Made by a program: the position numbers and the translations under genes. The notes below the pieces were generated by a model that worked only from the letters and a program-made list of their open reading frames with translations, was not told where the DNA came from and made no database searches. A DNA stretch of 64,000 nucleotides, from NCBI GenBank assembly GCA_030390025.1, contig CM059425.1, positions 160,952,001 through 161,016,000 on the forward strand, written 5' to 3'. This document shows positions 363 through 33,732 of the stretch, one piece after another; position 1 is the first letter of the stretch; each line of letters opens with the position of its first letter. Source of the DNA: Squalus acanthias. Its lineage: Eukaryota.

Positions 363-409
363 ATCAAATTGTCAAGTTACCTCAAAACATTTCACAGCCA
401 TTGAATTTA

Positions 410-3109: not shown

Positions 3110-3110
3110 C

Positions 3111-4978: not shown

Positions 4979-5470
4979 ATTAGAGCAACAGAACTGAAAA
5001 ACAAAGACGAATACCTGGAGAATTCCCAGTTTTTGCAGTCAGCCATTCAACCTGGGCAAGAAGATTCATGCCAGTATGTAACCTTGACAGAGTGTCCTAA
5101 CTGCATGGATGAACCTGAAAAGAACGACATTTGCATGAACTTGAGCATTCAATCTTCACATCATTTAAGAGGTGCTGGGAAATTCCAGTCATCAGTTGGC
5201 GTTGTGAATGAGAAAGAAAAACAAAAGGAGAAGCACTCCTCACTCCCAGCACAACACAAATCCAGAGTGGTTTATTTGCCGAAAAGAAAGCAGTTGCAGA
5301 GAAATCAGAGCTTTACCTCGATACAATCACTTACAGCCATGAATAGGAATGCATGGACAGGAGAGAGAAACGAGGGAAGCCTGCCTCTTGTAGGGCTCAC
5401 TCAACATGTCTTGCAGAAGTTGCACTCCCCCAAAGACTCTTCCAACTTATGGTCACAAAGTAATGCTGAG
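4979..5470 (+). pseudogene. Candidate coding exon A of an unidentified, probably decayed gene (164 codons, open)
   Basis: Acceptor attttcAG (4977-4978), donor GAG|GTAAGT (5471), 492 nt, phase 0/0, stop-free (IRATELKNKDEYLENSQFLQSAIQPG...WSQSNAE). In-frame stops lie just outside both splice sites (4967, 5492). Confidence 0.55.
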
Positions 5471-5493
5471 GTAAGTGTCACTGAAGAGGATTA

Positions 5494-5630
5494 ATGGAAG
5501 CGAATTTCCTCGGGGCTTCTCCCGCTCTGCAGCCGTAACTGTGGTGGAGGCCATGTTTACACACGTAAACAGGGTTTCCGCCAAAGTTATGGCAGCACAG
5601 CGGGAGAAGCCCCAATGAAATTCACCCTCT
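5494..5630. mobile_element. Palindromic MITE-like hairpin
   Basis: 59-nt arms 5502-5560 and 5565-5623 are inverted repeats with 10 mismatches and a 4-nt loop (ACAC). Confidence 0.75.
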
Positions 5631-5911
5631 AAATTGTGTTCTGAGCAATTGTTTTATACCCTACATTTACTGAGTTTTTAAAAGTGCCCAAAACTTGAGC
5701 AGCACCTCAAAGGAAATTTGGGCCCAAAAATCCGCTGGCTGAACACCGACAGTTATGCCAGGAGCCACTGCCACTGCCCTCCAACATTGACCCTGGTCAG
5801 GGGGGTCATCTAATTTAATGGGGCCTGTGGCTGCCCGCGTCACTGTGTGTGCATCTCCAGTGCCCACCTGCCACATGCAATTCTTGATTTTCTTTACAGC
5901 ATAAGAACTTT

Positions 5912-6023
5912 GGGCATGAAATTGGTCTGCAACAATGGAAAAGAAAATCGGGCGTGGTGTAAAACTGGCAGCCAATTCGCTATGAGCTTGTTTCGCACTA
6001 CTGGCGTAGACCAATTTCACCTC
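5912..6023. mobile_element. Short MITE-like element
   Basis: Terminal inverted repeats TGAAATTGGTCTGC and (reverse complement) TGAAATTGGTCTAC. Confidence 0.6.
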
Positions 6024-6050
6024 ATTTGTTATTTTTTCCCTATGTTTCAG

Positions 6051-6168
6051 TGAGCACATCTACAATCTTCCATGGTCAGGAGGGCAGAACAATCCAGCCT
6101 ACCAATGCCCCCATTAGCCTGTCTCCTTATTTGAGACCCACCCATGGAGATTCTCTTGATTACTGCAG
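6051..6168 (+). pseudogene. Candidate exon B of the unidentified gene
   Basis: Strong acceptor ttttttccctatgtttcAG, donor CAG|GTAGGA. One frame is open (STSTIFHGQEG...SLDYC, phase 1 to 2). The phase-0 frame is open except for two TGA codons. Confidence 0.4.
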
Positions 6169-7069
6169 GTAGGATCACCTTCCTAGGATCAAATTTAAAT
6201 ATGAAGAGCCTGGAATGTATTGAGTGATCCAGCAATAGCTGAATATTTTTCTTCCAAACCTATAAAGTCACAACTGCACACATGTAGGGATCTGAAAATA
6301 TCTCGAAACTGTAAAATCCTTGAACTAACAAAGTTTGAGCCTTGTCCATCTTTTAAACTTTATTTCTGTTTCCTTCCATTCCTTTTGGTTTTCCCCAGGC
6401 CACCTTGTTGTGAACAAAAGAGGGTTACAGGCAAGTGGCTCCCATTCCTCTCCCAATGCCATGAGGTACACAAAAACAGCTGGGGTGATTTTTCTTCTTC
6501 CATGTGGGAACCACATCATCACTTCTCATTGCTTATCCCTAACAGCAAGGTTGAGATCAGGAACTCATCTGATGGGACATATGAGCACAGACTCACATCT
6601 GCAGCCCATGAAACCACACATTATAGTAATAAACCTCAATGTTTTTTGATAAACGTCTGTGCATTTTCTCGGTATTACAATCAAATAAAACAATTTTAGT
6701 AATTTTGAAATTTTACATACTTTTTAATATTTTACATATCAAGCAGATCCTCTTGAGTTGTATCAAATATAATGTAGGAATTTGAGTAGCAAGAAGCAAG
6801 TATTTTTTTTTAAATTTTAAATAAACCAAAGTCTCGTATAAATCTCTGATGAATGTACCAATGTCACAGAAAAAGATTTACCCTGGATGTGGAGTGGATC
6901 TTTGCAAACACATGGAACTTTATAATTCAGCAGTTACAATTCTTATTAACTGTCACATCAAATATTGTTTCAGTTGTTTCCTGCAACTTTGGTTCAGTTT
7001 ATATCTACACTTGCTTTGAAGCGCGTCTATCTTAGCTGGTTCTGCCCTAGACCTATGGCTTCCAATCTG

Positions 7070-8611
7070 TGACTAGGGAACATCCTAGGGTTTTGAAAGA
7101 GGTGGTCATTGGGATAGTGGATGCATTGGTTGTCATCTTCCAAAATTCTATAGATTCTGGAACGGTTCATGCAGATTGGAGGATAGCAAATGTAACCCCG
7201 CTATTTAAGAAAGGAGGGAGAGAGAGAACGGGGAACTAAAGACCTGTTAGACTCACATCAGTAGTTGGGAAAATGCTGGAATCTATTATAAAGGATGCAA
7301 TAACTGGGCACTTAGAAACTAATAGTAAGATTGGGCAGAGTCAACATGGATTTATGAAAGGGAAATCCTGTTTAACAAACCTATTGGAGTTCTTTGAGGA
7401 TGTAACTAGTGGAGTAGACAAAGGGGAACCGGTAGATGTGTATTTGGATTTTCAGAAGGCCTTCGATAAGGTCCCACACAAGAGGTTGGTGAACAAAGTA
7501 AGGCACATGGAATTGGGGGTAATATACTAGCATGGATTGAGAATTGGTTAACAGACAGAAAACAAAGAGTAGGGATAAATGGGTCTTTTTCAGGATGGCA
7601 GGCTGTGACTAGTGGGGTACCGCAAGGATCGGTGCTTGGGCCCCAGCTATTCACGATCTATATCAATGATTTGGATGAGGGGACTAAATGTAACATTTCC
7701 AAATTTGCTGATGATACAAAGCTAGGTGGCAGTGTCAGTTGTGAAGAGGATGTGAAGAGGCTTCAAGGGGATCTCGACAGGCTCAGTGAGTGGGCAAGAA
7801 CATGGCAGATGGAATATAATGTGGAAAAAACAGAAAGGCAGAGTATTTCCTAAATGGTGAAAGATTGGGGAATGCAGATGCTCAAAGGGACCTGGGTGTC
7901 CTTGTACATGAGTCACTGAAAGTGAATGTGCAGGTGCAGCAAGCCATTAGGAAGGCAAATGGTATGCTGGCCTTCATTACAAGAGGATTTGAGTACAGGA
8001 GTAAAGAAGTCTTACTCCAATTATATAGGGCCTTGGTGAGACCACACCTGGGGTACTGTGTACAATTTTGGTCTCCTTACCTAAAGAAGGATATACTTGC
8101 CATAGAGGGAGTGCAATGAAGGTTCATGAGATTGATTCCTGGGATGGCGGGACTGTCGTATGAGAAGAGATTGAGTAAACTAGGCCTGTATTCTCTTTAA
8201 TTCAGAAGAATGAGAGGGGATCTCATTGAAGCATATAAAATTAGTACAGGGCTTGATAGGGTGGATGCTGGGAGAATGTTTCCCTTGGCTGGGGAGTCTA
8301 GAACCAGGGGCCACAGCCTCAGGATAAAGGGTAGGCCATTCAGGACTGAGATGAGAAGAAATTTCTTCACACAGAGGGTGGTGAATCTTTGGAATTCTCT
8401 ACCCCTGAGGGCGGTGGAGGCTCAGTCATTGGGTATATTCAAAACAGAAGTCGATAGATTTCTGACTAGTAAGGGCATCAAGGGATATGGCAATAGGGCC
8501 GGTGAATGGAGTTGAGGCAGAAGATCAGCCATGATCTCATTGAATGGCGGAGCAGGCTCGAAGGGCCGAATGGCCTACTCCTGCTCCTATTTCTTATGTG
8601 CTTATGTTCTT
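7070..8611 (+). mobile_element. 5'-truncated, degenerate CR1 LINE (RT domain to 3' tail)
   Basis: Split ORFs with [41 protein letters not shown] and FADD motifs. Stops, frameshifts and an internal deletion near 7828. Tail ttcttatgtgcttatgttctt. Confidence 0.95.
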
Positions 8612-9598
8612 AAACAGGTACCAGGCATTTCAGTGCAAGTGACTTTCTTTCTTGTCCTGTCACACAATATTTTAAGAGCTGAAAATGGGTAGCCCCTGAA
8701 TTACTGTACTCATTATATCATAAAGGACTATGATACCCTTTTGTGAAAGGTAGCAGCATCTACTTTCAACTGTCAGTTGCTAAAAATAACACAAAATACA
8801 CCTGTTCCATTGACGTGGAAACAGCAATATTGTATGAAAACTCAAAACAATTATTTGAAACTTTACCCTCTATCTTTGCTAAAATTAAAACTATAAAATT
8901 CTGTCAACTCATTCACCACATTACACAAAGCACTAAAGCCTACGTCTGTACAACACTGAGACACTGGAATTCTGAAAAACTGTAAAATATTCCAGCTTTA
9001 ACTTGCACTACAAAATAAACACATTTACGGTCAATGGGTAAAAAATCTATGAGGAGTGAATTAAAGCCTATAATTTAATGTCTGATGCTGCTGTAGTGAT
9101 TTATGATATCAGCTAAATTGGCTCAATTAGATCATAGCTAAGATCACAACTATGGCTGGAACCATGGGATATGATGGCCAGCGGAAAAAAAATCATGAAA
9201 ACCTTGTAATAAAGTGAAAATTAACTTATTCAGTCACCATAAACCAATGGCCCTAATTATAAATGAACAGATTCACAGTATGTAATCCCCAAACCATTAA
9301 TTAAAAAAATCCCACAATCCCACATGATAAAAACTTATTCAGTCACTGTAAACCATTGGTCTTGATTATATCATTGCAGCTCACTGCATGGTGTCCATTA
9401 CTCTGTAGGGGTAGTTTTACAAGTGTGTGCTGCCAGCGGGAAGTCTTGCCTGCCAGCAACACATACTGGAAACTCATGACCAGTTTTCTGTTAACTGCAA
9501 TGCAAACAAGTGTTTTTGTTTAGGTCGAAACATGTTTGCATTTAAAACAAAATAGTAAATTGATATATTGTCACATTTGTTTTATTTTTGTCTTCTAG

Positions 9599-9728
9599 AG
9601 ACATAGTAAAGAAATACTGTCCCAAAAGTACTTCAACTGGATCTTTGCCCGCCTTTCCCATTAGTTCACTTCACACAAGGGCTGGTGGTGGTTTACTGCA
9701 TGCAAGATCCAAATCTGGAGTGCAACCC
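9599..9728 (+). pseudogene. Candidate exon C of the unidentified gene
   Basis: Acceptor tttatttttgtcttctAG, donor CCC|GTAAGT (9729). Open frame DIVKKYCPKSTSTG...SGVQP, phase 2 to 0, compatible with the phase-2 end of exon B. Confidence 0.45.
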
Positions 9729-11541
9729 GTAAGTGTGCAAAAAGGAAGACCCAGGACATACCCACACCTCTCACCTTTGACCTGTGACTCTGGCACCCAA
9801 TTTGTTTTTGAACTTGAAATCAACAGAAAAGATAGTTAGCCGCCCTGTGTACAAGCAACCCATTTATTCTTCAGGAACAGCTTGGAAAGATGTATCCAGG
9901 TCACCTGACCCTGTGTTGTCACAGAAACATCTGAACCCTAACTCATCTTGCAATTAAACCCTGGACCAGCACATACATAACCTTTGACATATAAATGTTG
10001 GATTTCCACTTTATCAACTATCTGAAATATGTTGCCTCTTTCAATAAGCTTTGGATCACCACCAGGATCTCAATAAGTAAAAAAAAATGGAAATTTCTGT
10101 TTTGTGCATCTTTAACATTTTAGGTCTCAGCCACCCTCTGATGATTTAGAAAAAGCTGGCAACCACAAATTTATGATGCAATTACTTTTAATTATTGACA
10201 GTGGCAACCTTTCTCAACTAAACCTTCATTTCATATTGTTAATGGATACGAAAAACCAACACGTTCTTTGAATATTTAGCATTGTCTCTTCCGAACTGGA
10301 TTGCTCTTAGTTAATTAGAGCTGTACACAGACATTCAAGTAACTGGGACACCACAGACGTGATCGGTAAACAGCATTGTATGTGTTTATAAATACAAAAT
10401 GCCATCTGTAATCACATTTTGGAACCTCCAGAATAAAGAGGCCGGCTTCAAGAAGAGAATTTTAATAGAGCTTCAGCAATGCAGAGATTGGAGTCGACCT
10501 TTATTTGTAGGAAGCTTTTACCTGTTGCCTTTGTAGTGCCTGCAATACAGTGAGGCTGAAGCAACTGATCTTTGGACCTTTGTAGACAAGGAACTGTGGC
10601 ACAGTCGAAAACAATGGAGATTCCTGAAATTCTAAAGAGTTACGGGGATAAAATGAAATTCTTCTTTTGTATTGACTTCTCAATGCATAATAAAACTAAA
10701 ATGTAGATAATCTTGGATAAAGATTGCTGCACATTGTGTTTTATAAATAGCAAGTTCCTGCATCTTGTAGTGTTTATTAGTGGACAGCACATTGTATCTA
10801 AATAGACAGGGATAAAAAAAATGATAATTTTAAGCTAGACAATTAAATAATTATGCAAACTTCAATAAGTCAGGTGTGCCACAATTGATGTGATTACAGC
10901 TATGTGCTTTTTTTAAATGAAAACCCACACTGTGTGTTAGTCAGCCATTACCCATCATGCATGGTTTAACAACAACTAGTGCAAGAGGTTCACACTGAGA
11001 CAATCTAAAACAAAAATGAGTAAATACTAGAAATGACCAAATACAGACATTCTGTACCTGAGCTTTCTTCCTTCGCAAAGAAATAATTATTTGAAATTAG
11101 AATGAATTGTATGCTTAAATATGTGTATTTTGAGAAAACCAGGGCCTTAATTATAATTTGTTTGCTATAAATAGCACTTCAGCATACAACTATTGTGAAG
11201 AATTACAACATGGTCTGATTATTGTGAGATGAAACAAACCTGTTCTGTAATTCACTTTGCAGATGTCTAGTTAGTCAATCAAGTGATCTGTAATCACAAA
11301 CCCTGTCAGAAAATGAATGAATAATGGGCTGTGATAAAATGGTGGGATTTTCTGGTGTGCTTGTTCCATGTGGTGAATGCCATCTGTAATTGTCAGGTCC
11401 TGTTGGCTTTGTTCTTTATTTGAGCAGGGAAGTTAAACTATGTACTGTTCCCTTCATCCAGGGAATCTGCAAACAAGAGGATTGAGTTAAGCAGAGAAAG
11501 GGCTCATGAAAGTGATAGGGAAGCTTTTGAAACAATATTAA

Positions 11542-11726
11542 GGGATAAATTCTATCTTCCCCACATGGGCAGTAATCTAGCAGAGTGGATTGCCCGCCCA
11601 TTGCAGAACCCACCTTATTTTCATTCCAGTGAAATCAATGGAATGAAAATCAGATAGGCACTATAACAGACAGGTGATTTGCTCCGCCACATTACTGTAT
11701 ATGCAGTGATGAGGAAAATTTACCCC
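11542..11726. mobile_element. Palindromic MITE-like element
   Basis: Central inverted repeat TTTTCATTCCAGTGA-aa-TCAATGGAATGAAAA, degenerate pairing outward, termini GGGATAAATT / AATTTACCCC. Confidence 0.65.
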
Positions 11727-12328
11727 AAATGTTTTAACACTACTACTATTATCACTAAACCTTTGTTTAAAAGCGTAAGCAGTGTGCACAATGGTCCAGT
11801 AGCTCAAGCTGTTGGAAGTTCAGCACCAAGTGTATGTTGCCTATTTGAATCACAGAGCTGTTTATCACTTACATTCACTGAGCTCCATTGGTTGAGTTTC
11901 ACCAGCTTGGAACTGCTTAGATGGAGTGCAGTTCAGAAACACATTTACCCCAAAAATCCATGATGTGGGGGTGGGGCACCTTGGTGTGAGGACTGAGATG
12001 CGTCCATCGTGGACCTTCACTGCTTACCCAGCAGATGACCAAGATTTAATACAAGGTGCATGATATTGTTGGGCAGTTGATCAAATATGCCTAATTACTC
12101 TTTGTCGCACGGTAATGGTTTATGTATGGCCCTACTTAACTGCTGACAACTTTTTTTCTCCATTACTATAATACTAAAAATGACAGTTATCAAGTGTCAC
12201 ATGAACAACAATGCACACATTATGCTATCATATTTTATTGATTTGAATATAAGGCTAATTCACAAAAATAATACGCTTTTTGATGCTGACTAGTTATATT
12301 TCTGTTCCTATTCAGCAAGGCCCACTAG

Positions 12329-12401
12329 AAAGAAAGACTAGCACCTTTCATGACTTCAGGATGTCCCAAAGCATTTTACAGCTAATGGAGTACTTCTGAA
12401 G
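12329..12401 (-). mobile_element. SINE 3' tail fragment
   Basis: aagaaagact..gcacctttcatgac..caggatgtcccaaagcattttacagc matches the reverse complement of the SINE tail at 3030-3109. Confidence 0.7.
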
Positions 12402-15037
12402 CTTCAACCATCTGCAGCCTATGCTCCTGGACATTTCGGGTCAATTTTCTTGCTGTAGAAATGAGTTAGAGTACATTTTGTCAATTTTAATTTTTAAAAA
12501 CATCAAAAGTATGTATAATCTACCAACCATACACAAAATGATGCCACCTTGATTTTCCCTTGCTTGCAACTGCTCTGTGACCTCATACTTGAAGCTCCAG
12601 ACCTCCAAGAACACACAGGCCCATACCATATGACATCATAGTACATTAGTCCACAGCCAGAACGAGTGCATCTGGAAATGATGAAAAACAAGATAAAAAT
12701 ACAACTTGAGTAGTGAAGAAAGACGAGCAACAGGTATATGATGTGTATCTGCCATTTCCCATCATAACCTTTATCCTTCCACTAGTGATGGCACTGAATG
12801 CCTCCACTGACAGCATAATTAATGCATGACAAGTATACATAGACAATTTTTATTATAACGTAGACATATAAATTTATAATTGAAAAAGTTGACAGGAAGT
12901 GGACACATTTTTAAAATATCAAAGATATATTTTCCTTTGATTTTCATCTTCGTAAGAAAGCTCAATTTGTTGCAAGATGTATTAATATAATCGATAGTTT
13001 AAATTGTTCACTACAGTGAAGTCTTGCATAAACATCACCTTTAATATGTAATAACCATGCTCGGTTTGAGAGAATAGCAACCTTTTTCGTTCTTACTTTT
13101 TAATGCTTTTTTGCCTGTGTTATTTTCTTTTCTTCCTTTGCTTGGGTTCCCCCACCACTTTGTACCATTCTTTAAATGAAAGGGCAGGAGAGTGATTAAT
13201 CCCTAGGCCCCCGATAGTGCTGCTGCTGAGCTGGCCACCAGGGAGAAAGCAAGAATAGCCCTAGGGTGCTTCACCCTCTGATAATTTTTATACCCCTCCT
13301 TGTGGGGAAGCAACTTGGTAAATGTTCAGTGTCTCCCCCTGACAGCAAGCCTGAGATCATGAATTCCCTGTATGAGGAATTACAGACAAAAAAATGATTC
13401 TACTGCTCTGCGGAACATTGCATTGGAGCAACAGTGGACTGCACCTCCCTGCTCTGCCCTAAAACAGTGAGATTTACCACAAATAATATTTTAATTCTTA
13501 AAACCTGTGAGATTTAGATTTGTTAAGGCCTGTAAGTGTAATAATTCTTCAATACAATTAGAATAATTTAGGCATTCTGTCTGATTTTTTTCCTTATTTA
13601 TGTGATCATAAAAAACAAATGCATTCTTCAAATGAAAATGCATCTACAAAAAGTATTTTGGAAAGCAAACTCTAAATATTAAACACTGAAATGGATGTCA
13701 TATGTATAAGTCATAATTTCATATCAACCTTTTCCTTTAAATGTCAATGCAAATAAAGATATGTCTTTAACGTTCTTGGGTGTATGTCTTTATTGGTTTC
13801 ATATGATAACCTTTTTGGAAAGTGCATAAGAATTTATTGCACATCTGTTCTGTATTTTCTTTTTTATTAGGAAAAAGGGGATGAAACAAATCCCCCACCC
13901 CCGCCTCCCCTTCCCAGTACAGCTCCATCAACGTTATTAGAGGTGGGGCCTACCTGCAAAGGATTTATTGATTATTTCATAAACTATACTGAAATGACTT
14001 TGGTAGGGAAAATGAGTTAAACAAAGAGGTCCAAAGGTGTAAGAGCAAATATGAAAAGTTCATGCCAATGTTGAAGTCATGCAGTGCGGTTTGCAATAAA
14101 AAAAGGACAAAGCCCACATCTTTAATTCAGTAGTGGCTAGTAAATAAGTGGAATGAAAATCAAACCGCTCTGGTTTATAGGTACACATGTGTGGAATTGT
14201 AGATCAGCTGGCTTTTATTTTCTGGGGTTGGGTCAGCCGCCCTTTTGTAAATGTATTTTTCACCCGATATTTAACTGCTCCCCCCTCCCCCACAAGCTGT
14301 GCACCATTACCTGGCTAAGGGCTTGTGCACACAATCTGTCCACAGCCACTGCCAGTGTCCAGTCTGGCAGGGTGCCTTGTACTTTGATATTCCCTAATTC
14401 TTTGTGGTGGTGGTGGGGGGGGGGTGTTGCCTGGCACCTGCTAACTGTCTCTACTTGATAGCACAGCTGTGGCTGGGAACTCCCCACGTTGGCAACTGGG
14501 GTAATGAATGGAGGGCCTACACATGGTGTTCTGGGCGTCAATGCATAATTCCACTGGAATGTGTCTTTTGCATGCGTGCCACAGGTTGGCATAAGGTATA
14601 TAAGGGGCTTCGTGAAAAAGGCAGTGGCAAATACCGTTATGATCCGAAAAGAAATCTGTACTAGGCATCAGTTACTTCTAGGAATTAGGACTTCTAACAA
14701 CTCTTTATAGCACACTTCCCCTGTCTAAAACAGGGAAAGATTTTCACTCCAGACTTTTAATTGATTTTATTTGGTCTCTGGTCTCATGAGCGTCACAAAT
14801 GTTAGGTTATTTATTTACTCTGCAAAAATCACACTGACCAGCGTTCCAAATAGTGAGTTCTGAACCTCAGGCATGCCGAGCAGAGGATATAGTGTTTTCC
14901 TGCGGAGAGGGAAGAAAAATAAACAGAAGGCAAGTCACCCTGAGTCTCTCTCTCGCTCACCTCTTATTGACTGACTACAGAGCCATGGCCTAGCAGCAGA
15001 TCCATTCCATGTTCACGATTCCAAAGGGTTTTAGTTT

Positions 15038-15510
15038 TATTAGTAGTCTCTTACATGGGACCTTGTCAAAAGCTTTCTGGCACAAATAAATCACAACACA
15101 GGGAGTTCCACTACCTACTTTATTTGTAACATCTTCAAAGAAGTTAAGGAGGTTTGTTAACAGGACCTTCCGTTATAAACTGCTCTAGCTGTTTTTATTA
15201 AGTATTGCTATATAGCTACTTTTCCAGCCTACTTCTTAGTATTCTTTCCATTATTTCACCTGATAGTGATTTAAGGGCTCTGTAGTTACCTGGGTCAGAT
15301 TTGTCTTCCATTTTTTAAAAAGATAGCTACAAATTTTCTTTAATTCCAATCCTGTGAAACCTTTCCAGTACTCAATGAATCTTTCAGGACTATGAAAACT
15401 GCTGTCTGCGCCCGCCCCCACCAACACTTCACAAATTTCTTTCCTAGTCACCTTCAGCAACATAGGATGTATGCCATCCGGCCCAGGGAATTTCTTAGTC
15501 TTCAGTTCAC
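15038..15510 (-). mobile_element. Old CR1 RT fragment
   Basis: Reverse strand retains degenerate QKAFDKVP-like (gggaccttgtcaaaagctttctgg), FFEDVT-like and PGPDGIHP-like (ggatgtatgccatccggcccaggg) segments. Confidence 0.7.
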
Positions 15511-15569
15511 TTAATTATGAACTATTGTCTCCACATTGATTTCCAAATCCTCTAGGGTATTTGTTGCAC

Positions 15570-15999
15570 TACAATACTTTTAACCCCCCTCCCCCCACCC
15601 CAGATACTGCGGACAACCATCTATACCGGACAATTAACACTAGCCATTTGCCATTCCTATAGATGTCACTCACAAAGACACCGCTGATACCGTATTAAGT
15701 GCTCTGGCTATTCCAGGCAGACTCAGCAGTTCGCACCTTGTAAAAGTGTGATTACCGTGACTACTTAATCTCCTATCATTGTTATTGGGTTAAATCTTGC
15801 ACTAATCAGCATTGACTGCAGCAGCAAAATGGCTGGAAAGAGGAAAGCGATGAGCTTCAGCGTGAAAACTGACCTCCTAAACAAGACGGATGAACTGCTG
15901 AAGATGAGGCAGTATGATCTAACGCAAAACCACGATCTCCAAAATCTACTGTTGCTACTCATTTTACTTCCAGCTCATACAGTGGGCAAAACGCATTAA
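15570..15999 (+). mobile_element. Tigger/pogo DNA transposon 5' remnant
   Basis: ATG at 15829 reads MAGKRKAMSFSVKTDLLNKTDELLKMRQYDL, then PKSTVAT (15939) and IL across compensating frameshifts. This resembles the CENP-B/psq-type N-terminal HTH. A repeated CGGACAA motif lies near 15610-15632. Confidence 0.5.
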
Positions 16000-16082
16000 C
16001 GCGATATGGACTGTAATTGTGTAGTAAGCCAATATTTCCCTCCCCAATGAATACTTCCAGAAAACAATCATTAAGAAAATTA

Positions 16083-16725
16083 GGGGGAAAAATTCGTTAT
16101 TGACCATTTTGAGGTGCTAACAGCGCCTGGGTGCAAACTTTAGCACCCGGCGCTAATTAGCACCGGCAACCGCGAAATTCAGTTTTAGTGCCCCAAGAGG
16201 GAGGTGGAGCGCGAAATCAAGCACTCCACTTCCTTCTTGGAGCGCTAACCCCGAATATCGGGGCGGAGACTTCAGCAGCGCTGCACACTGAGCCGTTCAG
16301 AGCTGCCACGTTCAAAGGTTCCTTCCCTCCCTTTAAAGGGAAGAGCCATCGCTGCAGGCTCTGCAATAGAAAAATTACCTACCTGGACCACCGAGGCAGT
16401 TTTTTTTTTACTTACCTCAGCCACCTCGCCTTTAATCATCGCCCCCAAAGTGACCGGCCGCCCGATGCACGCCTCCTGCAGCTGTCGGTGTTTTCGACTG
16501 GCACTGCTGCAGGGGCCGAAAGTCCATTTCGGGTCCGGGGTGCTACCGGGGCGATGCGCACGGCGATGACGTCACGATCTCCGGGCAACGCCGTAGCACC
16601 GTAGCGCCGCCGCAAAACTCCCGATGTCAGCGCGCGCCTGGTCGCAAAGCATTTTGCACCCCGTTAGCGCCCCCCCCCCCCCGGTGGTGCTAATGAGAGA
16701 CGCAAAGGCACCCAATTTCTCCCCC
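16083..16725. mobile_element. PIF/Harbinger-type MITE with TTA target-site duplication
   Basis: TIRs GGGGGAAAAATT and (rc) GGGGGAGAAATT, TTA on both flanks (16080-16082, 16726-16728), repeated subterminal G(C/T)GCTAA motifs, CpG-rich. Confidence 0.8.
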
Positions 16726-17832: not shown

Positions 17833-17941
17833 CATGACAGAGTTTCAATACACTGCTATAATATAGCATCATATGTACTCAGTTCACTGTCCAACAAGTC
17901 CCTGATTGCAGACAACTCACCAGACAACCCTCTTAGCCAAG
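17833..17941 (+). pseudogene. Candidate exon D of the unidentified gene
   Basis: Weak acceptor ttgtAG, donor AAG|GTAAGG (17942). Open frame HDRVSIHCYNIASYVLSSLSNKSLIADNSPDNPLSQ, phase 0 to 1. Confidence 0.35.
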
Positions 17942-18874: not shown

Positions 18875-20033
18875 GAATCCAGCAAAGCCTCTACCAGTGC
18901 ATTTCTGAGTGACTGTGCACGGCTAACATTGGCAACTTGCATGTGGGGAATTTGCAGACACAAACTTACATCCTTTAACTCCACAACACAGAGCTGCATC
19001 ACCAAGCTGCACTCGGGAAGAGATGAAATGGAAATCGTTATTAACAGAACTTGCAAAACTCAGAACTTCTGATGAAACAAGTAGTATTCAATGCCATTCT
19101 CTAGCAAACAGAAAACTGAGGGGTGACCTGATAGAGGTCTTTAAGATTATGAAAGGGTTTGATAGGGAAGAAGTAGATAAGATGTTTCTACTTGTGGGGA
19201 GTCCAAAACTAGGAGGCATAAATATGATTGTCACTAATAAATCCAATAGGGAATTCAGGAGAAACTTCTATACCCAGAGCATGGTTAGAATCTGGAACTC
19301 ACTACCACAAGGTTGAGGCGAATAGCAATGATGCATTTAAGGGGAAGCTAGATAAACACATGAGGGAGAAAGGAATGGAAGGTTATGCTGATATGGTTAG
19401 ATGAAGAGGGGTGGTTTGTATAGAGTGTAAACACTGGCATGGACCCAATACTGCATCCAGTGTGCATTACACGGATACACTGAACAATTGTGGAATGAAT
19501 GTAAATGGCACATCCAGTAGCACTAGGGAGATGTGGGGGAGAGAGACACCTCACTGACCCATGGAGTGAAGTATACTTGGGATATTCTAAAGCTTCCAAA
19601 TCAAAGGCATGGATCCCAAACAGAAAGGAAATAATACCCTTAACTCTTCTGGTACTTACAAGTAAACATATCATTCACAGAAATGTGAGATTTATTGATT
19701 AAACAGAGTGATCCACATCAAAATAAGTTACACTTTGAAATCAAAATTAGTGATTGCACTCCAAATGGGTGAGTTTTGATAGAGATAGAAGCAGTCAGGG
19801 AGACCAATTTTTCAAATTTAGAAAGTGAGGGATATTCAGAGGTACACAAAGAAACCACCCAGTAGAACTGTTATACTAAGGAACGCCCAAGGTGAAAGTG
19901 CAGAAACAAAACACTACAGAAATCTTAAATAACTGTAATAATCTGAAAGTACAGACATTGATAATTCCAGACCATTGTCCTTAATAGTAAACTATAGAGA
20001 TTATAAAGTAGATTCACATATAAAGGAGCATCG
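18875..20033 (+). pseudogene. Candidate large exon E, disrupted by stops, frameshifts and a CR1 insertion
   Basis: Strong acceptor ttcctttttcctgtttcccattAG, donor CG|GTAACA (20034, phase 2). Coding-like patches (EEMKWKSLLTELAKLRTSDET; SESTDIDNSRPLSLIVNYRDYKVDSHIKEH) lie in shifting frames. Confidence 0.35.
19093..19445 (+). mobile_element. CR1 LINE 3' fragment
   Basis: Translates LRGDLIEVFKIMKGFDR...FRRNFYTQSMVRIWNSLPQ, the CR1 ORF2 C-terminus. Confidence 0.9.
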
Positions 20034-22748: not shown

Positions 22749-23127
22749 AGTTTGGAGTAATCTCTCTATCCACTGTCACCTCCTTGGAACAACCTGTCTC
22801 AGCATTGACAGATTACTTCTGTCATCTCAACCTCACCTGCCATCTATTCCATCAGCATCGGTACCCTTGAAAAAATCTCACCTTGGTTCTCAGAATCCCA
22901 ACACGATCAGCCCCAACACCAGCATCACCGGGCACACCAGCAGCACCAACATCCACACCAACCTTCTCCGCAAACAACTGATGCTGCACTGGACACAGGG
23001 CATCATGACCCATGCACATTGCTGCCCAGGATGCCAGTGATGGCCTCACCATGTCCAGATTTGCTTCACTTAACACTGTATACCCTGGCTGCCACATGAT
23101 GCACCAGGTTGGCACCACCCCACACCA

Positions 23128-23675
23128 GCACCATCTACAAGGCACAAGTAAGGAGTGTGATGGAATACTCTCCACTTGCCTGGATGAGTGCAGCTCCAAC
23201 AACACTCAAGAAGCTCGACATCATCCAGGACAAAGCAGCCCGCTTGATTGGCATCCCATCCACCACCTTAAACATTCACTCCCTCCACCACCAGTGTACT
23301 GTGGCTGCAGTGTGTACCATCTACAAGATGCACTGCAGCAACTTGCCAAGGCTTCTTCGGCAGCACCTCCCAAACCCGCGACTTCTACCACCTAGAAGGA
23401 CAAGGGCAGCAGGCGCATGGGAACACCACCACCTCCAAGTTCCCCTCCAAGTCACACACCATCCTGACTTGGAAGTATATCGCTGATCCTTCATCGTCGC
23501 TGGGTCAAAATCCTGGAACTCCCTCCCTAACAGCACTGTGGAAGTACCTTCACCACACGGACTGCAACGGTTCAAGAAGGCGGCTCACCACCACTTTCTC
23601 AAGGGCAATTAGGGATGGGCAATAAATGCTGGCCTTGCCAGCGATGCCCAGATCCCATGAACGAATTTTAAAAAA
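23128..23675 (+). mobile_element. 3' fragment of a second CR1-group LINE family
   Basis: TIYKAQVRSVMEYSPLAWMSAAPTTLKKLDIIQDKAARLIG is a post-RT region of CR1-group ORF2. A-rich end. Confidence 0.85.
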
Positions 23676-24127
23676 GCATTCCTACAATGTCCAAGCCATT
23701 CCTTTCACACTCATCACCATTGGTGTGTGTGTGGGGGGGGGGGGGGATGTTATGTCTCACCATTCACTGCAACTCACTAAGACACTTCCAAAGGTGCATA
23801 CAAATCTGTCCAAGAACGCAAAGTGTTCAAAATAAAGATTTCAATGTTTGACAGCACATTACCAGAAACTTCACAAGAACATTGGCTAAAACACTCAAGT
23901 GCCTACCCTTGTGTGTTCTTAGTTGGTATGATTGGACTAGGATGAGTGTGAGTGTGAGGGATGGATAGTGAGATGGAGAAGTGATAATATAGATAGAGAG
24001 GGATGGGTGGAGGTACAAGCTAAGTTGGTGTGAGTAAGGATGTGCAGAAGTAGGGTAGGGAAGGCAGAGTGTTGGGGATGTGATGAGTGGCACAGGAGGA
24101 TGAGGTTGAGTGTGGCTTTGCAGTAAC

Positions 24128-24436
24128 GTTTCGTGATCTACTGAGATCATTGAAAGGTTTGCGCCACTGCAGCCTGGTCCTACTCATGACATCCCTGCTT
24201 GTGCCCTCCTGTGCAATGTGCAACCAGGCTGCATTGGTGTCCTGGGGAAGTGTCTTCCACCCATTGGAAGGGAAGAGAACCTCCCTGTGTGCTGTGACTC
24301 CCTCCATAAGCATATGGAGGGAGTCATGGGAGAGCCTGGGTGTAGACGTGCACCTCTGTGCAGTGCTTGTCAGTGTTTGCAGCACCTCAATGCTGTAGAA
24401 CACTGACAGCAGAACTGTCAAAATCAATTTGGACAT
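24128..24436 (-). pseudogene. Harbinger accessory Myb/SANT-like DNA-binding protein remnant
   Basis: PRLSHDSLHMLMEGVTAHREVLFPSNGWK...AAWLHIAQEGTSRDVMSRTRLQWRKPFNDLSRS follows the Myb/SANT trihelix pattern (F/W..L..L...V......LF; W..IA; RT..Q.RK.FNDL) of Harbinger ORF2 proteins. Confidence 0.7.
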
Positions 24437-25200
24437 GGCCCCTTTAAGGTAACCGGCTGATGACGCGTCATCAAATGACGTCATCAGACCCACTTCCTAT
24501 TAATTGGCCGTGAACCTCGCAGAGCGGGCTTAACAAGCCCCATCATCGTAAAATCTTTTTGGAGGCCGGAATTGAGACAGATGCCAGGTCCCCACACACC
24601 ACGGACATCTCCCGCCCCAGACCCGCCGAGGTTGGAAAAATCCAGCCTATTGTGTGATTGTAGTAAGCCTCTATTATGTGATTCCAGGTACCAATCAAAT
24701 CCCAACATTGGTTCATACTAACCACACAGAGCAATCAAATTGTTGGGGGGAAAAATCAAGCCATTTTCAGTTGTCATGATAATTTCACATTCCCTCTTTC
24801 CTTATTCCTCCTCCCTGGACATTTTGCCCACTCTGCCTAATCTGCTTTGTCCCAGGTCCCTCATCCTGAGTGCTCAAGCTCTGAATCACCCTCCTCCCAG
24901 GCCTACCTTGAGTGTTTCAACTCCACTGCACTCACTCCCACCAAGGCCCACCCCAAGTGCTCCAATCCCCATATCTGCTCCTAAACCTCAATTCCCTAAA
25001 GTTGACACAAAAACTCCTGCTCACATGCCCTACTACCTGATAGTATCTCTAAGAGCGTTTGGCCAGAAAATTCCCCCTTCCTGTCGCCCCCCACCCCCCA
25101 CCCCCCCCCCCCTCACTCCCCATTCCCTCCTGCTGGGACTACTAGCGATACCACTAGGGCTCTCCTAATAAAAATAAAATATGTTCTTGTAACGTTTTAG

Positions 25201-25936
25201 ATTTGGTGCAGAAATGCTACTGCCGTTCTCAAAGAGTTTAAACAAGTACTGCAGTCCTCAAAGAGTTAATGTACAAGAACTGACAGGAACAGTGATAACT
25301 TTACTCCAGCCTATACCAACTGGGTGATACTCTCCATATGTCGCTTCCCTGACTGAGAATAAGGCCCGATTCAAACCATCTGCCTTAAGGCAAGGGGTGA
25401 GTGATAGCACCCACAACGCATTGGTCCTGTCTCAGCCAGTAACTTCTCCAGAAACAAAGCAAGCCACTGTTGAGGCAAACAGCTCAGACCACAAAACCTC
25501 ATCATATGATCCACTTGCAGGGAGAACAGGTCTCTGACAGCAACCAGCACTCACAACATCCAGCCAGACAAATGGCTGAAAAGCATTTTTACAGAAGTGA
25601 TTCTGCAGCCAGCCACAGAGGAAAACAGTCATATTAAGGATGGCTTGATGTCTTTCCTCCTTCACTGACCAGCATTGATGAAATTACAAGTGTCTGTGCT
25701 GTGGATAAGATAAGTGTCAGTTTACAAGCAGAATCAGAACTTAGGCCAAATACCCCCTTTTGGGACACTTACATAAAGATCGGCTCCTCCTCCATGTCCT
25801 TCTTCTACATCTCTAGGTCAACTACCTCACCTTTTCTCTTCATGCCAGTCAGAAACGCAAATTCAGCCTATTGAGAGTCTGTGGTTGCCTTTCCATCCAG
25901 ATGCACTGGAAGATATACCTAAAAATAAATTTTTAA
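25201..25936 (+). pseudogene. Candidate exon F of the unidentified gene (decayed)
   Basis: Acceptor aacgttttAG (phase 2, matching the exon E donor), donor AA|GTGAGT (25937). The frame FGAEMLLPFSKSLNKYCSPQR... runs about 150 codons broken only by TGA (25325, 25535, 25577, ...). Confidence 0.45.
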
Positions 25937-27384: not shown

Positions 27385-27394
27385 ACACAGAATC

Positions 27395-29376: not shown

Positions 29377-31063
29377 CCTGGTAGGGTGAGGACATCAAAA
29401 ACAATCCCCAGGGAGCTGTTGAGCAGGTTGATAGAGGCGGTAGTGTCATGGAAGGTGGAGAACCAAAAGACAGGAAATTGGCAATTATAGAGTGTGTTGA
29501 TGGGGAATGTTTTTCCAGATGCAGAGGGCAAAGGTAGTGTGGCTGGAGGTTAAAAAGGAAGATGTGAATATTGAGAGGAACAAAGAAATGATCAGAGATG
29601 GCCTGGTCAATTATCAAAACCTCAAAGTTAGTGAGGTCTCATGTAATGTGTAGGGTAAGGTTGATTAAGGAGAGGGGGCAGAGAAATTGGATGAAAGGGG
29701 CAAGGGAAATTTAGCTAACGGTTGAAATCACCAAGGAGGAGGAGTCCCTCAGTTCAAAGGCGAAGACAAAAGAATAGGGAGGAGGACTTGATGAAGAAAT
29801 CAATTATGGATTTGTGAAGGCTTGCACTTACGTCGCCATCAATGTTACTGGTACACTTCTGTTCCGAGATCTCTTTTTATTTCTGAACAGAGATCTTAGA
29901 TTCCTTGCCTATTCAAACATTAATGGAACAACATTTTGATAACTGGTTATGATAGAAAAATGTTACAGGATTGAAAAATCTGTCCTGCTGGGTAGTTTCT
30001 TCAGATGAGACCTGGGGTGTACTGTATGGGTGGAAGCCCTTTTATATGATTTGAAGAAGTTGTCCTAATTCTCTTTTGTTGGCTCCTGTGCCTTACTAAC
30101 ACCATGCTTTGTCAAGCACAGTCCACTAAAGGCTTTATTTGAAGCAGAATGTTTCAAGCTAGCTTTGACAATAGCACACATTGATGATTTACCTGGTAGC
30201 TGCATTTAAAAATACTGAAAAAATCAGGTGGACATATTAATTCAATGGCATGGCTTTGCATTTCAACTGAACACTATTATTCACGTCCATAAAATCAGAA
30301 AGTCAAAAAGGACCCATAATCTAAAAACAACAACCACAAACAAAACAATAGCCACAAACAAGTCTCAGAACTCTAATTTAAGGCAACAATTAACAAATTG
30401 CATTCACTCCACATTGCACCAGAATTCAGTTCAGTTGCACAAAGTGAGCACAGCTGCATAATATCAAGGTTTCAGTGCTGATATTATACTCACCACAATC
30501 TCACAGTCAGGCAAAAATGAAACTGAATGAAAATAATGGTGGAACAGCATGAGAAAATGAAAGTTAAAGTGCACCAATTTGGCTGAAGGATGATAGCTAC
30601 TCCACATATGATTTTACTGAAAGTAAGTAACAGAATAACTAGAGGGTCAATGCATAGAGTTGCATGTCTATGAGAAGCGGTTTATGAAAAATACCCCACC
30701 GAGTAACACCAAACCTTATAACCCACAAGCACTGCAGGTGTGTGATCGAAAAGTGAAAACATTGCTACTTTCCTATATCAAATTTAGAAAACCATTAACA
30801 TCTAATCAATGTGCAAAGTGACCATTTCGCAAGCTGCAGCTGGCTTTATTTATTACCAATGAAAATCATATGTATGTATTGTTTTTGAAACATTCTCGAA
30901 ATGATTGTACAGATGTCTAATCAAATTTTATTTTTTTTAAATGACAGCGGTTTTCAAAAGGTAAATTGCCAGTGTTGTCCTAGATAAAGAAAATTAACTT
31001 CAGAGCTCCAAGCTTATTTTCTTCTTTATAAATAGTGACCATAATATGATTAAATTTGATAGT

Positions 31064-31839
31064 GACCCGGATTTTGCGGTAGAAATAATGACGAGGCTAA
31101 CAGTGCTCACCGTTATTAAACTGTAAATTGGACAACAACTTCCAGCGACCGCATATGCGCAGTTAAATACATAAATCAGAGAGTTGCTGTCCAAGATGCC
31201 CTGCTCCTCCAGAAGCTGCGCTACAATGGTATCCTTCCCAAGAGACTCGCCATTAAAAGACATGGAATGGCATGACGTTGCTGTACTCACCTGATATATA
31301 TGAACTAAACTTGCCAGAAAAAGTATGGGTTTGACCATCCCAGTGTAAGTACCCTTTTAATGGTGTGATAAGTCTTAATTACTACCAAGCAACCTCTCTG
31401 GCACTGAAAATTAACTTTAACAAGTGTGGAGTCTCATTCCTTCAGATATTAATTATTGTTGGAGATTTTTTTAAATTCAAAAAAAAATTCAACTTTTTCT
31501 TTCTGTCTCTTTTATCTCTCTCTCTCTTAATCCAATCTTACTTTCCCTCTTTTTATTTCACTTTCTGTACTTGATTTGGCGAATGCAATATTCTAACTGA
31601 TGCTTCCTGGTTCAGACTCTGCGCTGTTCATTAACGATTCTTCAATCTGATTGGTTAAGATGATGCACAGTAGCTTACCCTGTTCACACAGATCCAAGAT
31701 GCCCTGTAGAGGGCACTGTGTTTTTTAAATAGTTGGCTGACAGGAATTCCGGTGCAAAAGTCCATAAAAAGTCATTGAGCAAGTGCAAGTGTAACAAACG
31801 GCTAGCGCCTCATTCACCACTGACCGCAAAATCCGGCCA
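31064..31839. mobile_element. Non-autonomous DNA transposon (Harbinger-like)
   Basis: Perfect 14-bp inverted repeat CCGGATTTTGCGGT at 31067-31080 and 31823-31836. Confidence 0.7.
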
Positions 31840-32049
31840 ATTTTAACTTTGAAGAGATGAGAAATTAATTAAGCGAAGTAAATAGCTCATACTTACAGAC
31901 AGTGGGAAGTATCCAAAGGATTATTTGGTACAATACAAAACCAGTACATACCCCGAAAAGGCAAAGGCTTCACTTGTGTAGTTAAGCACACATGGACAAC
32001 AAATGAGGTAAGGGTCAGTATCAATCTAAAAGTAAATGCTTCCACAAAT

Positions 32050-32395
32050 GCAAGGAAAAGTGGAAATCCAGTGGACTCGGAGTGCTATAAAAAGCAACAA
32101 AGGGATACAAAGAAAGTAGTAAGTGGTGTAAAAAGGAATATGAAAAAAACTTGCAAGGGATATCAAAGCTAACAGCAAAGGCTTTTATAAATACATTAAG
32201 AGAAGGAGAGTGGTAAAGGGAAATGTGGGCCCATTAAAGACAGATGCACGCAAGACAATAATGGATAATAAGGAAAAGGTAGACTGTCTAAATGAGTACT
32301 TTGTATCCATGTTCACAGTGAAGGAAGAAGACAAAATACCAGCAGTACACGGGAACATAAAAATAAGTCATGGAGAGGAACTTAGTCAGCCTAAA
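32050..32395 (+). mobile_element. Old CR1 ORF2 internal fragment
   Basis: LARDIKANSKGFYKYIKRRRVVKGNVGPLK...DCLNEYFVSMFT is the CR1 linker between endonuclease and RT. Confidence 0.8.
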
Positions 32396-33380
32396 CTGTT
32401 GTCACGCATTTCTGAGGGGTTAGAGCAAGAGTCACATCGTAAGAGCTCTGAAGCAAGCTAATTGGCCATGTTCTTGATTGTGATGTGAAAGGGACGTTTT
32501 TAAAAAATAAATTATAGATAAAAATAACACAGAAGTCCTGCTCTTTAACATGCCTAATCTAAATTAAATTTCTATTTCTGAGCCAAAAGATGGTCAATGA
32601 TTTTTAATTAGTTTAAGAGCTACCTTTAGTTGGTGGTCAGAGGCCACATTCAATCAATTAAAGCACTATATTAATTAACAAAATATCATAATGCTTATAG
32701 CATTAAAAAAAACTGTCCCCAATTTCCAACAAAGATGTACATCTCATTTCTTTATTCAGAAACAAAATCTTCTGTCAAGTTTCCTGAATCGTGTGCTGCT
32801 ATGTTGTTGAGCAATGCAGTTTGTAACACCTTTTTTTCACCAGCAGTAGATGTGATTGCTTCTACCTCCTGCAAAATGTTTGGCCAGGCACCATCACTGT
32901 TACTAATGTGTGCTTTCTAACTGTGCTAAAATAACTTTTAACAGAATTTAGTCGCATAAATTAAGTTAATATTTATAATTTCTCATGCTTCAAAATTCTG
33001 TGACAATTCTGAGAAATATAACAATAGCCCTTGGTACATTGCTAAATGAAACAAAGGAGACTTTTATAGATGGATATGTGAAAGTGAGACAGCACCTTGC
33101 GGCAGTGCCCACTCACAGAGAGAGGGGGGAGAACCAGAGAGCAAGTCACCTTGGGCTGCTCTTGAGTACCTCTCAGGGGCTTGGTCATTAGGAGAATCTT
33201 AGGAGCAGGTTGGCTGTTTGCTCTCTCAGCAACCAAATGGTGTATACCACAGGATGATCTTAAAAAATGGAACATTTTTTTTCTTAATGAAATATATGTA
33301 ATATAAACCAAATTAGCTAACAGAAAACATTGTCCCATAACAGCTGTTGTTAATCACTAACATTGTGAAATATTATACAG

Positions 33381-33732
33381 ATCAGATACCTGACATATTT
33401 CCATAAAAACTTTGCAAAGTGAAAATAGAGAAAAAAATCAGTGCCAAACTCTTCATCTAAAAATAACAGCAAGGCCTTCCAGTGAAACTGAATCAAGAAC
33501 TGAAGGAAAGTTCCAAGATCTAATTTCCTTACACTTCCATAAACTTGAATATTGTACACTTCATGTTCACCAACTATTAATGCATACAAGCTCTTTAAAC
33601 AAAAAGAAAAAAATATTTTTTTCTGCAAGCCAATATACAGGCCATCAAACAAGCAAATATATTACAGAAATGTCTGAAGGTGGTAGAACAGCATTTGGAT
33701 ATTGGATGCAATGTAGTTTTAATATCTCTTAA
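33381..33732 (+). pseudogene. Candidate distal exon G of the unidentified gene
   Basis: Branch point CACTAAC (33355-33361) and acceptor tacAG (33379-33380). The phase-2 frame has one TGA (33391) then stays open to 33732. Confidence 0.3.

What the first reader, a model, noticed from the sequence alone, without database searches (positions are those of the whole stretch)
4979..33732. Hidden, apparently decaying multi-exon gene upstream of NR2F1
Seen: seven non-repeat segments on the + strand start at AG acceptors, and six of them end at GT donors (4979-5470, 6051-6168, 9599-9728, 17833-17941, 18875-20033, 25201-25936, and 33381 onward). Several donors are consensus (GTAAGT twice, GTAAGG, GTGAGT). 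Exon A is 164 stop-free codons with in-frame stops just outside each splice site. Phases join for B to C (2), C to D (0) and E to F (2). Distal exons carry stops, frameshifts and a CR1 insertion. Inference: a Ser/Thr/Glu/Lys-rich protein gene whose 5' end lies left of the window, now a unitary pseudogene, truncated gene or spliced lncRNA. I recognise no family, and in mammals this side of NR2F1 is a gene desert with an antisense lncRNA. Caveats: A to B joins only through a TGA-containing frame or a weaker acceptor at 6079, and F to G phases do not match directly.
Basis: partly seen in the sequence, partly recalled or inferred. Interest (0 to 1): 0.75.

Follow-up and report, generated by a model that had tools for sequence, protein, structure and literature searches.

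The report
Broken ancient RCC1 gene beside NR2F1
Two of the seven proposed exons are the last exons of an unnamed gene shared by sharks, sturgeons, eels, coelacanth and amphioxus (an RCC1-type propeller with a long, likely floppy tail); in this shark the last exon carries two frameshifts that cut off the conserved end, so the gene is likely a young pseudogene, while the other five segments have no support as parts of it.

Summary
Exon A (4979-5470) and 9599-9957 are the last two coding exons of an unnamed gene that exists only as automatic RefSeq/GenBank models in sharks, chimaera, sturgeons, bowfin, eels, coelacanth and amphioxus. Complete relatives have an RCC1 beta-propeller (exons left of the window), a tail predicted to be disordered, and a near-invariant C-terminal motif. 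The window copy has two frameshifts in this last exon (about 9614 and 9805). Both are present in gap-free contigs from three sequencing runs, so they are not assembly errors. A related species about 2-3% diverged has a nonsense codon in exon A. The protein is otherwise undecayed, so the loss looks recent. B and D-G match nothing in the family. E, F and G look mildly coding-like, but not beyond what picking the best segments could give; relics of a second gene are not excluded. No spliced read was seen at any junction. Verdict: a probable young unitary pseudogene of an unstudied, ancient RCC1-domain gene 37 kb upstream of NR2F1.

The parts
4979..5470 (+). Penultimate coding exon (exon A), 164 codons, phase 0 at both ends; encodes part of the tail
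   Evidence: 71-85% identical to five shark proteins, 51% to chimaera; open frame longer than in 860 of 860 background windows
9599..9957 (+).
   Evidence: 80-90% identical to five sharks when read with X at the two breaks; tblastn in two frames
9612..9617 (+). Frameshift 1: one base stands where relatives have a whole codon (net -2)
   Evidence: gap-free contigs X2 9227-11595, X7 9376-9868, X6 9389-10549
9662..9664 (+). Premature TAG reached after the ancestral A-to-C splice (5 normal and 16 novel residues; 114 C-terminal residues lost)
9729..9734 (+).
   Evidence: crossed unspliced by X6 and X7 contigs
9804..9810 (+). Frameshift 2: one extra base in a T run (+1)
   Evidence: same three gap-free contigs
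9865..9924 (+). Conserved C-terminal motif (YSSGTAWK...DPVLS), intact in sequence but now out of frame
   Evidence: invariant or near-invariant columns in a 16-protein alignment including amphioxus
9958..10850 (+). Probable 3' UTR; AATAAA at 10432 and 10689, ATTAAA at 10842
   Evidence: 9965-9988 translates to 7 of 8 residues of the extra tail of the S. torazame model, so the UTR start is homologous; end inferred
5360..5362 (+). Gly codon 128 of exon A, read as TGA in related organism C
   Evidence: one contig, depth 11.6 of 11.6, 59 letters from its end; codon effect
6051..6168 (+). Segment B: strong splice-like sites, no match in relatives; begins with an in-frame TGA after A, so at most a poison or cryptic exon
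   Evidence: acceptor crossed unspliced by an X7 contig
17833..17941 (+). Segment D: unsupported; strong donor, otherwise like background
   Evidence: crossed unspliced by an X6 contig
18875..20033 (+). Segment E, with an old CR1 3' fragment at about 19110-19465; unsupported, mildly coding-like
25201..25936 (+). Segment F: no homologue found; coding-like score in the top 1% of GC-matched windows; unexplained
33381..33732 (+). Segment G: no homologue found; 112-codon open frame, top 0.7% of GC-matched windows; unexplained
7080..8610 (+). CR1 LINE 3' part in the last intron
   Evidence: reverse-transcriptase-like frames, self-matches, very high depth
47366..51035 (+). NR2F1, three intact exons (47366-47816, 48533-49060, 50761-51035), same strand, 37 kb after the RCC1 gene's stop
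   Evidence: open frames, boundaries; the name NR2F1 rests on recalled diagnostic residues, not on a search

Best explanation
How the intact gene works (inferred): complete relatives encode a predicted seven-bladed RCC1 propeller, a 300-650-residue tail predicted to be disordered, and a roughly 20-residue motif kept from amphioxus to sharks. It most likely acts as a protein-binding adaptor: the propeller binds one partner, and the motif is a short docking signal on a flexible tether. No catalytic domain was found. How it is broken here: splicing A to 9599 as in relatives would give 21 residues and a stop at 9662 (computed). Such a last-exon stop would escape nonsense-mediated decay, but the protein would lack 114 residues and the motif. 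The second frameshift blocks any route back to the motif that only bypasses the first. A related species has a stop in exon A, 110 bases before the last junction, which would be expected to trigger decay. Shown: homology, exon ends, frameshifts, their presence in reads, the nonsense allele. Inferred: loss of function, its date, the adaptor role, and that the propeller exons lie left of the window.
For: Exon A finds 5 shark proteins among 109 candidates (E 1e-60 to 1e-84). The family profile finds 15 of 3891 candidates, and 14 of them carry the motif 22-34 residues from the C-terminus. tblastn of these proteins hits only A and 9599-9957 with good E-values; a profile search of all six frames gives the same, the next hit being E 0.27. 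Pfam RCC1 repeats and no other domain above cut-off. Sturgeon model: seven groups of four strands in residues 10-383, residues 385-688 under pLDDT 50; Foldseek top matches are RCC1-like domains. Frameshifts: contigs with 0 gaps across both sites in 3 of 4 runs laid: X2 (organism A, DNA), X7 (organism A, another sample) and X6 (organism B). Organism C: TGA at 5360; 4 of the 5 listed differences in 5300-5470 change the residue.
Against: The protein shows no accelerated change: 10 window-only against 19 Heptranchias-only changes (Heterodontus as outgroup), end branch 0.041 against 0.098, and 3 of 160 otherwise invariant columns changed. This fits a young lesion, but also continued selection on a truncated protein. 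Exon A is fully open in organism A. The X2 contig has depth 5.86, about half the single-copy level, so a second allele without the frameshifts could be hidden among the 26 indel rows not shown. Organism B differs from the window no more than organism A samples do (0-3 letters per contig of 0.4-1.2 kb), so it is not a clearly independent species. X2 may be the assembly's own sample. Whether organism C shares the frameshifts is hidden: its contig there has 20 gap letters at places not listed. The nonsense call rests on one contig, and 2 of the 5 differences (5345, 5372) also occur in organism A runs and match the residue of most relatives. The 5' exons were not seen. E, F and G score as coding-like as the real exons.
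Confidence: 0.74

Rival explanations
1. The gene is still working as a C-terminally truncated protein (propeller plus most of the tail); only the last exon was released from selection.
For: Exon A is open and slowly evolving in organism A. A last-exon stop is expected to escape decay (established knowledge). Strong donor at 5470.
Against: The lost part is the most conserved piece of the tail. Organism C has a stop in exon A.
Confidence: 0.12
2. New splicing rescues a reading frame: A, then B from the acceptor at 6080, then 9599-9728, D and E. This would give an open frame that ends 12 codons into E with a new C-terminus.
For: That join is open for 285 codons from the start of A (computed). B's donor, D's donor and E's acceptor score high. 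The 9729 GT is absent in the five sharks that have Ile there.
Against: The 6080 acceptor is ordinary (799 of 8053 AG sites score as high). The chimaera also has Val at 9729 and reads through. Contigs of the two runs guessed to be RNA cross 9599, 9728, 17833, 17941, 18875 and 20033 unspliced, and none of the 15 listed joints is one of these (3101 not shown; the runs may hold DNA). The motif is still lost.
Confidence: 0.05
3. One reading: A to G are exons of one long Ser/Thr/Glu/Lys-rich gene decaying from its 3' end.
For: Phases match B-C, C-D and E-F. E2, F and G are A-skewed and coding-like on the + strand.
Against: All 14 motif-bearing relatives end 22-34 residues after the motif, which lies at 9865. 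None matches B or D-G.
Confidence: 0.04
4. The broken copy is a null allele that is still polymorphic, or a duplicate, and the species keeps an intact copy.
For: Half-depth X2 contig and hidden indel rows. No whole genome was available to search.
Against: All three near-identical contigs and the window carry both lesions. The copy keeps its introns and is not repeated within the window.
Confidence: 0.05
5. Compatible with the best explanation and scored separately: D-G are relics of a second, older gene between the RCC1 gene and NR2F1.
For: GC-matched coding-like score: F top 1.1% (n=92), G 0.7% (n=306), E2 5.3%, E1 7.2%, against 2.1% and 6.3% for the real exons. All are on the + strand. G, F and E2 are among the top 12 of the 25 peaks listed. 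E and D are single-copy in DNA contigs.
Against: Windows with no proposed gene (55301 minus, 59001 plus, 4601 plus) score as high or higher. No Pfam family below E 0.02 in 24 read-through frames. The pooled homologue search found 0 of 7696 candidates, a weak test. D is like background.
Confidence: 0.27

Closest known systems
Automatic gene models 'uncharacterized protein' of sharks and chimaera: XP_067838275.1 (Heptranchias perlo), XP_067885103.1 (Heterodontus francisci), XP_072372373.1 (Scyliorhinus torazame), XP_038661198.1 / LOC119970512 (S. canicula), XP_078421217.1 / LOC144694533 (Cetorhinus maximus), XP_007891340.2 / LOC103178421 (Callorhinchus milii)
   Same: Same two terminal exons, same stop position, 71-90% identity in sharks. 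Almost certainly orthologues; synteny was not tested.
   Different: Their last exon is open and ends with the motif; the window's is frameshifted twice. All these models lack the first five or more propeller blades that sturgeon and eel models have: incomplete annotation or real loss, not resolved.
Complete bony-fish and amphioxus models: XP_058843354.1 (Acipenser ruthenus, 690 aa), XP_035234359.1 (Anguilla anguilla, 722 aa, named 'probable E3 ubiquitin-protein ligase HERC2'), XP_066273662.1 (Branchiostoma lanceolatum, 1036 aa); partial: XP_005990075.1 (Latimeria), XP_066567783.1 (Amia)
   Same: RCC1 propeller, low-complexity tail and the same C-terminal motif.
   Different: Tail length and sequence vary widely. 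The HERC2, HERC4 and UVR8 names given by sources are similarity labels; no HECT domain was found.
RPGR (retinitis pigmentosa GTPase regulator)
   Same: N-terminal RCC1-like domain followed by a long low-complexity tail; joint top Foldseek match; among the top Atlas feature hits, 0.93.
   Different: Only 26% identical, no closer than UVR8 or the HERC domains. No CaaX end. No Glu/Gly ORF15-type tail in the sequences (RPGR features recalled).
Bystander-gene loss in genomic regulatory blocks (PMC2831330, passages read)
   Same: A gene next to a developmental regulator is lost and leaves exon remnants and a gene desert; NR2F1 is listed there as a target gene.
   Different: That paper concerns human-zebrafish comparisons and another host gene (O94914). 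No regulatory role of these exons was tested here.

Membership tests
RCC1-like domain proteins | RCC1 repeats (PF00415/PF13540) above the curated cut-off | tested here: met
   In relatives P0001, P0002, P0005, P0009-P0013 and P0016. The window itself holds only tail exons.
RCC1-like domain proteins | Seven-bladed beta-propeller | tested here: met
   Sturgeon relative: seven four-strand groups, 201 of 690 residues at pLDDT 70 or more, mean 51; Foldseek E 5e-26 to RCC1-like domains. A prediction of modest confidence.
Unnamed chordate RCC1-plus-tail family | C-terminal motif YSSGTAWK...DPVLS near the end of the last exon | tested here: met
   Present at 9865 in the window, out of frame.
Unnamed chordate RCC1-plus-tail family | Propeller exons upstream in the same genome | not testable with these tools
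   Not in 1-4978; no genome held.
Unitary pseudogene | Disabling lesions that are real in the DNA | tested here: met
   Two frameshifts, gap-free contigs in 3 of 4 runs; nonsense codon in the fourth.
Unitary pseudogene | Lesions fixed in the species and no intact copy elsewhere | tested here: inconclusive
   Contigs drop variants, 26 indel rows were hidden, and no genome could be searched.
Unitary pseudogene | Relaxed selection (dN/dS near 1) | tested here: inconclusive
   4 of 5 listed differences change the residue, but there is no protein-level acceleration; no orthologous DNA was available.
HERC E3 ligases | C-terminal HECT domain | tested here: not met
   No HECT in P0013 or P0016, both named HERC2 by their sources, or in any other relative scanned.
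RPGR | High identity to the RPGR propeller, and a CaaX or ORF15 C-terminus (features recalled) | tested here: not met
   26% identity; C-terminal residues such as SSCN, SSQK, GQKR and VGPS.
UVR8 photoreceptors | Three GWRHT motifs (recalled) | tested here: not met
   0 matches to GW.H in all 30 proteins held.
Spliced lncRNA over A-G | Spliced reads at the proposed junctions | tested here: inconclusive
   None among 15 listed joints of 3116; the runs are only guessed to be RNA and may hold DNA. No Rfam family in the window.

The most novel reading that the evidence does not exclude
The shark locus catches the NR2F1 gene desert in the making. An RCC1-plus-tail gene as old as chordates sits beside NR2F1, was lost in tetrapods and most teleosts, and is now dying independently in this shark lineage, while D-G are the older remains of a second lost neighbour. 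The family, with its invariant terminal motif, would be an undescribed adaptor lost repeatedly in vertebrates.
Probability: 0.2. Interest if true: 0.6.

Novelty: new member of a known kind. Interest (0 to 1): 0.3.

Why it matters
It identifies an unstudied vertebrate gene that automatic annotation splits and mislabels as HERC2 or UVR8. It also gives a datable case of gene loss with almost no sequence decay. If the gene's place beside NR2F1 is ancestral and its absence from tetrapod and clupeocephalan hits is real, it would help explain how the gene-poor region upstream of mammalian NR2F1 arose. As it stands, a young pseudogene of an already annotated gene is of modest interest.

Tried and rejected
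Assembly error as the source of the frameshifts: rejected, because of gap-free contigs in three runs. Repeat origin of A or C: rejected, since neither has a self-match and both have protein orthologues. Whole-genome search: no genome held. Run search: no RNA holder listed as such; this is no evidence on expression. No spliced joint was visible, not even the ancestral A-to-C join, because repeat joints filled the table; parts without cover are not read as silence. Complex prediction of the sturgeon propeller (1-388) with its motif region (615-682): no answer, score 0.00, not used as evidence. Pfam on nine window pieces: nothing below E 0.07; on 24 read-through frames of B and D-G: best E 0.022, below the cut-off. 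Pooled search with six pieces of E, F and G aligned as one query: 0 of 7696, weak by design. Rfam gathering scan of the whole window: 0. Literature: 0 papers for RCC1+NR2F1+shark+gene loss (27); Nr2f1+synteny+Callorhinchus+Fam172a (37); six LOC identifiers (48); RCC1 domain+chondrichthyan+pseudogene (63); NR2F1-AS1+conserved+zebrafish+elephant shark (64). The 10 listings were unrelated. PMC8608329 (passages read) names Lysmd3, Arrdc3, Mctp1 and Mef2 as Nr2f1 neighbours and has no occurrence of 'rcc1' or 'herc' in the main text; its figures and supplements were not seen and unconserved genes were excluded there. Earlier scan notes: nothing near or similar; the 8 shown concern other loci. An Atlas look-up for segment F was not obtained, which leaves F's family open.


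Full report
Observation. Only exon A stands out from background: its 164-codon frame beats all 860 length-matched non-repeat windows, whereas B, C, D, E and F are matched by 12-51% and G by 1.5%. The consensus donor hexamers occur 12-23 times per strand each. With an approximate recalled matrix, the donors of A, D and B and the acceptors of E, B and C are strong and the rest ordinary. The matrix also scores A's real acceptor low, so it is a blunt tool.

Identity. Exon A found 5 shark proteins among 109 longer candidates and 3 of 1.84 billion cluster representatives. All named ones are automatic 'uncharacterized' models. A profile of them found 15 of 3891 candidates: five sharks, chimaera, paddlefish, beluga sturgeon, bowfin, three elopomorph teleosts, coelacanth, amphioxus, and one unrelated RCC1-only protein. 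No tetrapod, lungfish, ray or clupeocephalan teleost appeared. That search depends on shared words and lengths of 201-889 residues, so absence is only a lead. The closest protein is Heptranchias (87% over 281 columns), though the tree leaves that fork open; the window comes from a shark.

Gene structure. tblastn of the relatives hits only 4979-5470 and 9599-9954 with good E-values. A profile search over all six frames agrees, the next hit being E 0.27. In relatives A joins 9599 directly in phase 0 and reading continues through the GTAAGT at 9729 (Ile in five sharks, Val in chimaera and here) to a stop matching 9955-9957. Fourteen of the 15 hits end 22-34 residues after a motif that lies at 9865. 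The S. torazame model's extra tail matches the window just after the stop (7 of 8 residues), which marks that stretch as homologous 3' UTR. So the gene ends near 10 kb, and B and D-G are not coding exons of any known form of it.

The lesions. The last exon has one base where relatives have a codon (about 9614) and one extra base in a T run (about 9805). Both lie in short repeats, as sequencing errors often do, so I laid four runs on 5300-25299. Contigs with 0 gaps span both sites in X2 (organism A, DNA), X7 (organism A, another sample) and X6 (organism B). The lesions are therefore real. Caveats: X2 may be the assembly's sample; its contig is at half depth; 26 indel rows and 715 substitution rows were hidden; organism B is as close to the window as organism A samples are. 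Organism C, 2.2-3.5% diverged over six long contigs, has gaps at unlisted places in this region. It shows G>T at 5360, turning codon 128 of exon A into TGA (one contig, depth 11.6 of 11.6). Four of five listed differences in the 170 exon bases laid change the residue; two of them also occur in organism A runs.

Consequence and age. The ancestral splice would give 21 residues and a stop at 9662, losing 114 residues and the motif. Including B stops at once. Entering B at 6080 bypasses the first frameshift but meets a stop at 9837, or 12 codons into E if the 9729 donor is used. Read with X at the breaks, the protein is not accelerated: 10 against 19 lineage-specific changes relative to Heptranchias, 3 of 160 otherwise invariant columns changed, motif intact. 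This fits a recent loss in a slowly evolving lineage. It also leaves room for a working truncated protein (12%).

Expression. No run is on record as RNA. In the two guessed RNA runs, long contigs cross 6051, 9599, 9728, 17833, 17941, 18875 and 20033 unspliced, and none of the 15 listed joints (of 3116) is a proposed junction. These runs also cover introns, so they may hold DNA or nascent RNA. Nothing can be concluded on splicing.

The intact protein. Complete relatives are sturgeon (690 aa), eel (722-735 aa) and amphioxus (1036 aa). Pfam finds RCC1 repeats only. The sturgeon model shows seven four-strand groups up to residue 383 and no confident structure after it. RPGR, UVR8, HERC and RCC1 domains match about equally, at 20-32% identity. 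The Atlas's nearest clusters by features are a rotifer RCC1 cluster of 753 aa (0.94) and alsin-like, RPGR-like and SERGEF-like clusters (0.92-0.93). It fails the tests for HERC (no HECT), UVR8 (no GWRHT) and RPGR (low identity, no CaaX). I infer a non-catalytic adaptor: propeller plus a tethered docking motif. A ciliary role like RPGR's is a guess from architecture. All cartilaginous-fish models lack at least the first five blades, as do several bony-fish and amphioxus models whose close kin have them, so split annotation is the likelier cause.

D to G. They have no match to the family, no Pfam family above cut-off and no homologue in a weak pooled search (0 of 7696). A simple coding score still puts F and G in the top 1% of GC-matched windows and E in the top 5-7%, like the real exons (2% and 6%). 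An unbiased scan ranks G, F and E2 high on the + strand, but ranks unrelated windows as high.

Context and novelty. NR2F1 (name from recalled residues) starts 37 kb after the stop on the same strand. PMC8608329 (passages read) lists Arrdc3, Lysmd3, Mctp1 and Mef2 as Nr2f1 neighbours and does not mention an RCC1 gene in its main text; figures and supplements were not seen. PMC2831330 (passages read) describes bystander-gene loss creating gene deserts around such regulators. Synteny of the orthologues could not be tested. Five searches found no paper on this gene (open-licence library only). Verdict: a probable young unitary pseudogene of an annotated but unstudied RCC1-domain gene; new member of a known kind; interest 0.3.

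Noticed in passing
Relatives P0001-P0006, P0008-P0012, P0014-P0016, P0018: Most automatic models of this gene break at or after the same place, between propeller blades 5 and 6, in amphioxus, sturgeon, elopomorphs and sharks; in sturgeons the front part is annotated as a separate 'UVR8-like' gene. An unusual or very long intron there could explain it.
   Followed up: no
one search hit list: No tetrapod, lungfish, ray or clupeocephalan teleost among 15 hits, although eel, tarpon, bowfin and coelacanth have the gene; possible repeated loss.
   Followed up: partly
window 6051-6168: Segment B is one of three non-NR2F1 segments on the + strand (five segments in all outside NR2F1's coding exons, counting both strands) that pass the strictest exon-like filter, and it opens with an in-frame TGA after exon A, like a poison exon.
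   Followed up: partly
window 4559-4640 and 12815-12895: An 82-base direct repeat (82% identical) lies on either side of the gene's last two exons; probably a small dispersed element.
   Followed up: no
window 21231-22750: Young CR1 on the minus strand with a 478-codon open reverse-transcriptase frame; joints skipping it appear in all four runs, either an empty site or other copies of the flanking repeat.
   Followed up: no
window 50753-50760: The acceptor of NR2F1's last exon ends in AAG rather than CAG or TAG, with a poor pyrimidine tract.
   Followed up: no
window 5502-5623, 37417-37543: Imperfect palindromes of 122 and 127 bases (80% and 72% self-complementary); the first looks like part of a multi-copy element just after exon A's donor.
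   Followed up: no
window 55301-55601 (minus) and 59001-59301 (plus): These rank first and third in the coding-like scan; 59053-59460 has a 136-codon minus-strand frame. They lie downstream of NR2F1, where the end of a neighbouring gene might be.
   Followed up: no
P0007 (unnamed 90-residue record): A fragment 63% identical to exon A, more diverged than any named shark protein; may come from another cartilaginous-fish lineage or another decayed copy.
   Followed up: no
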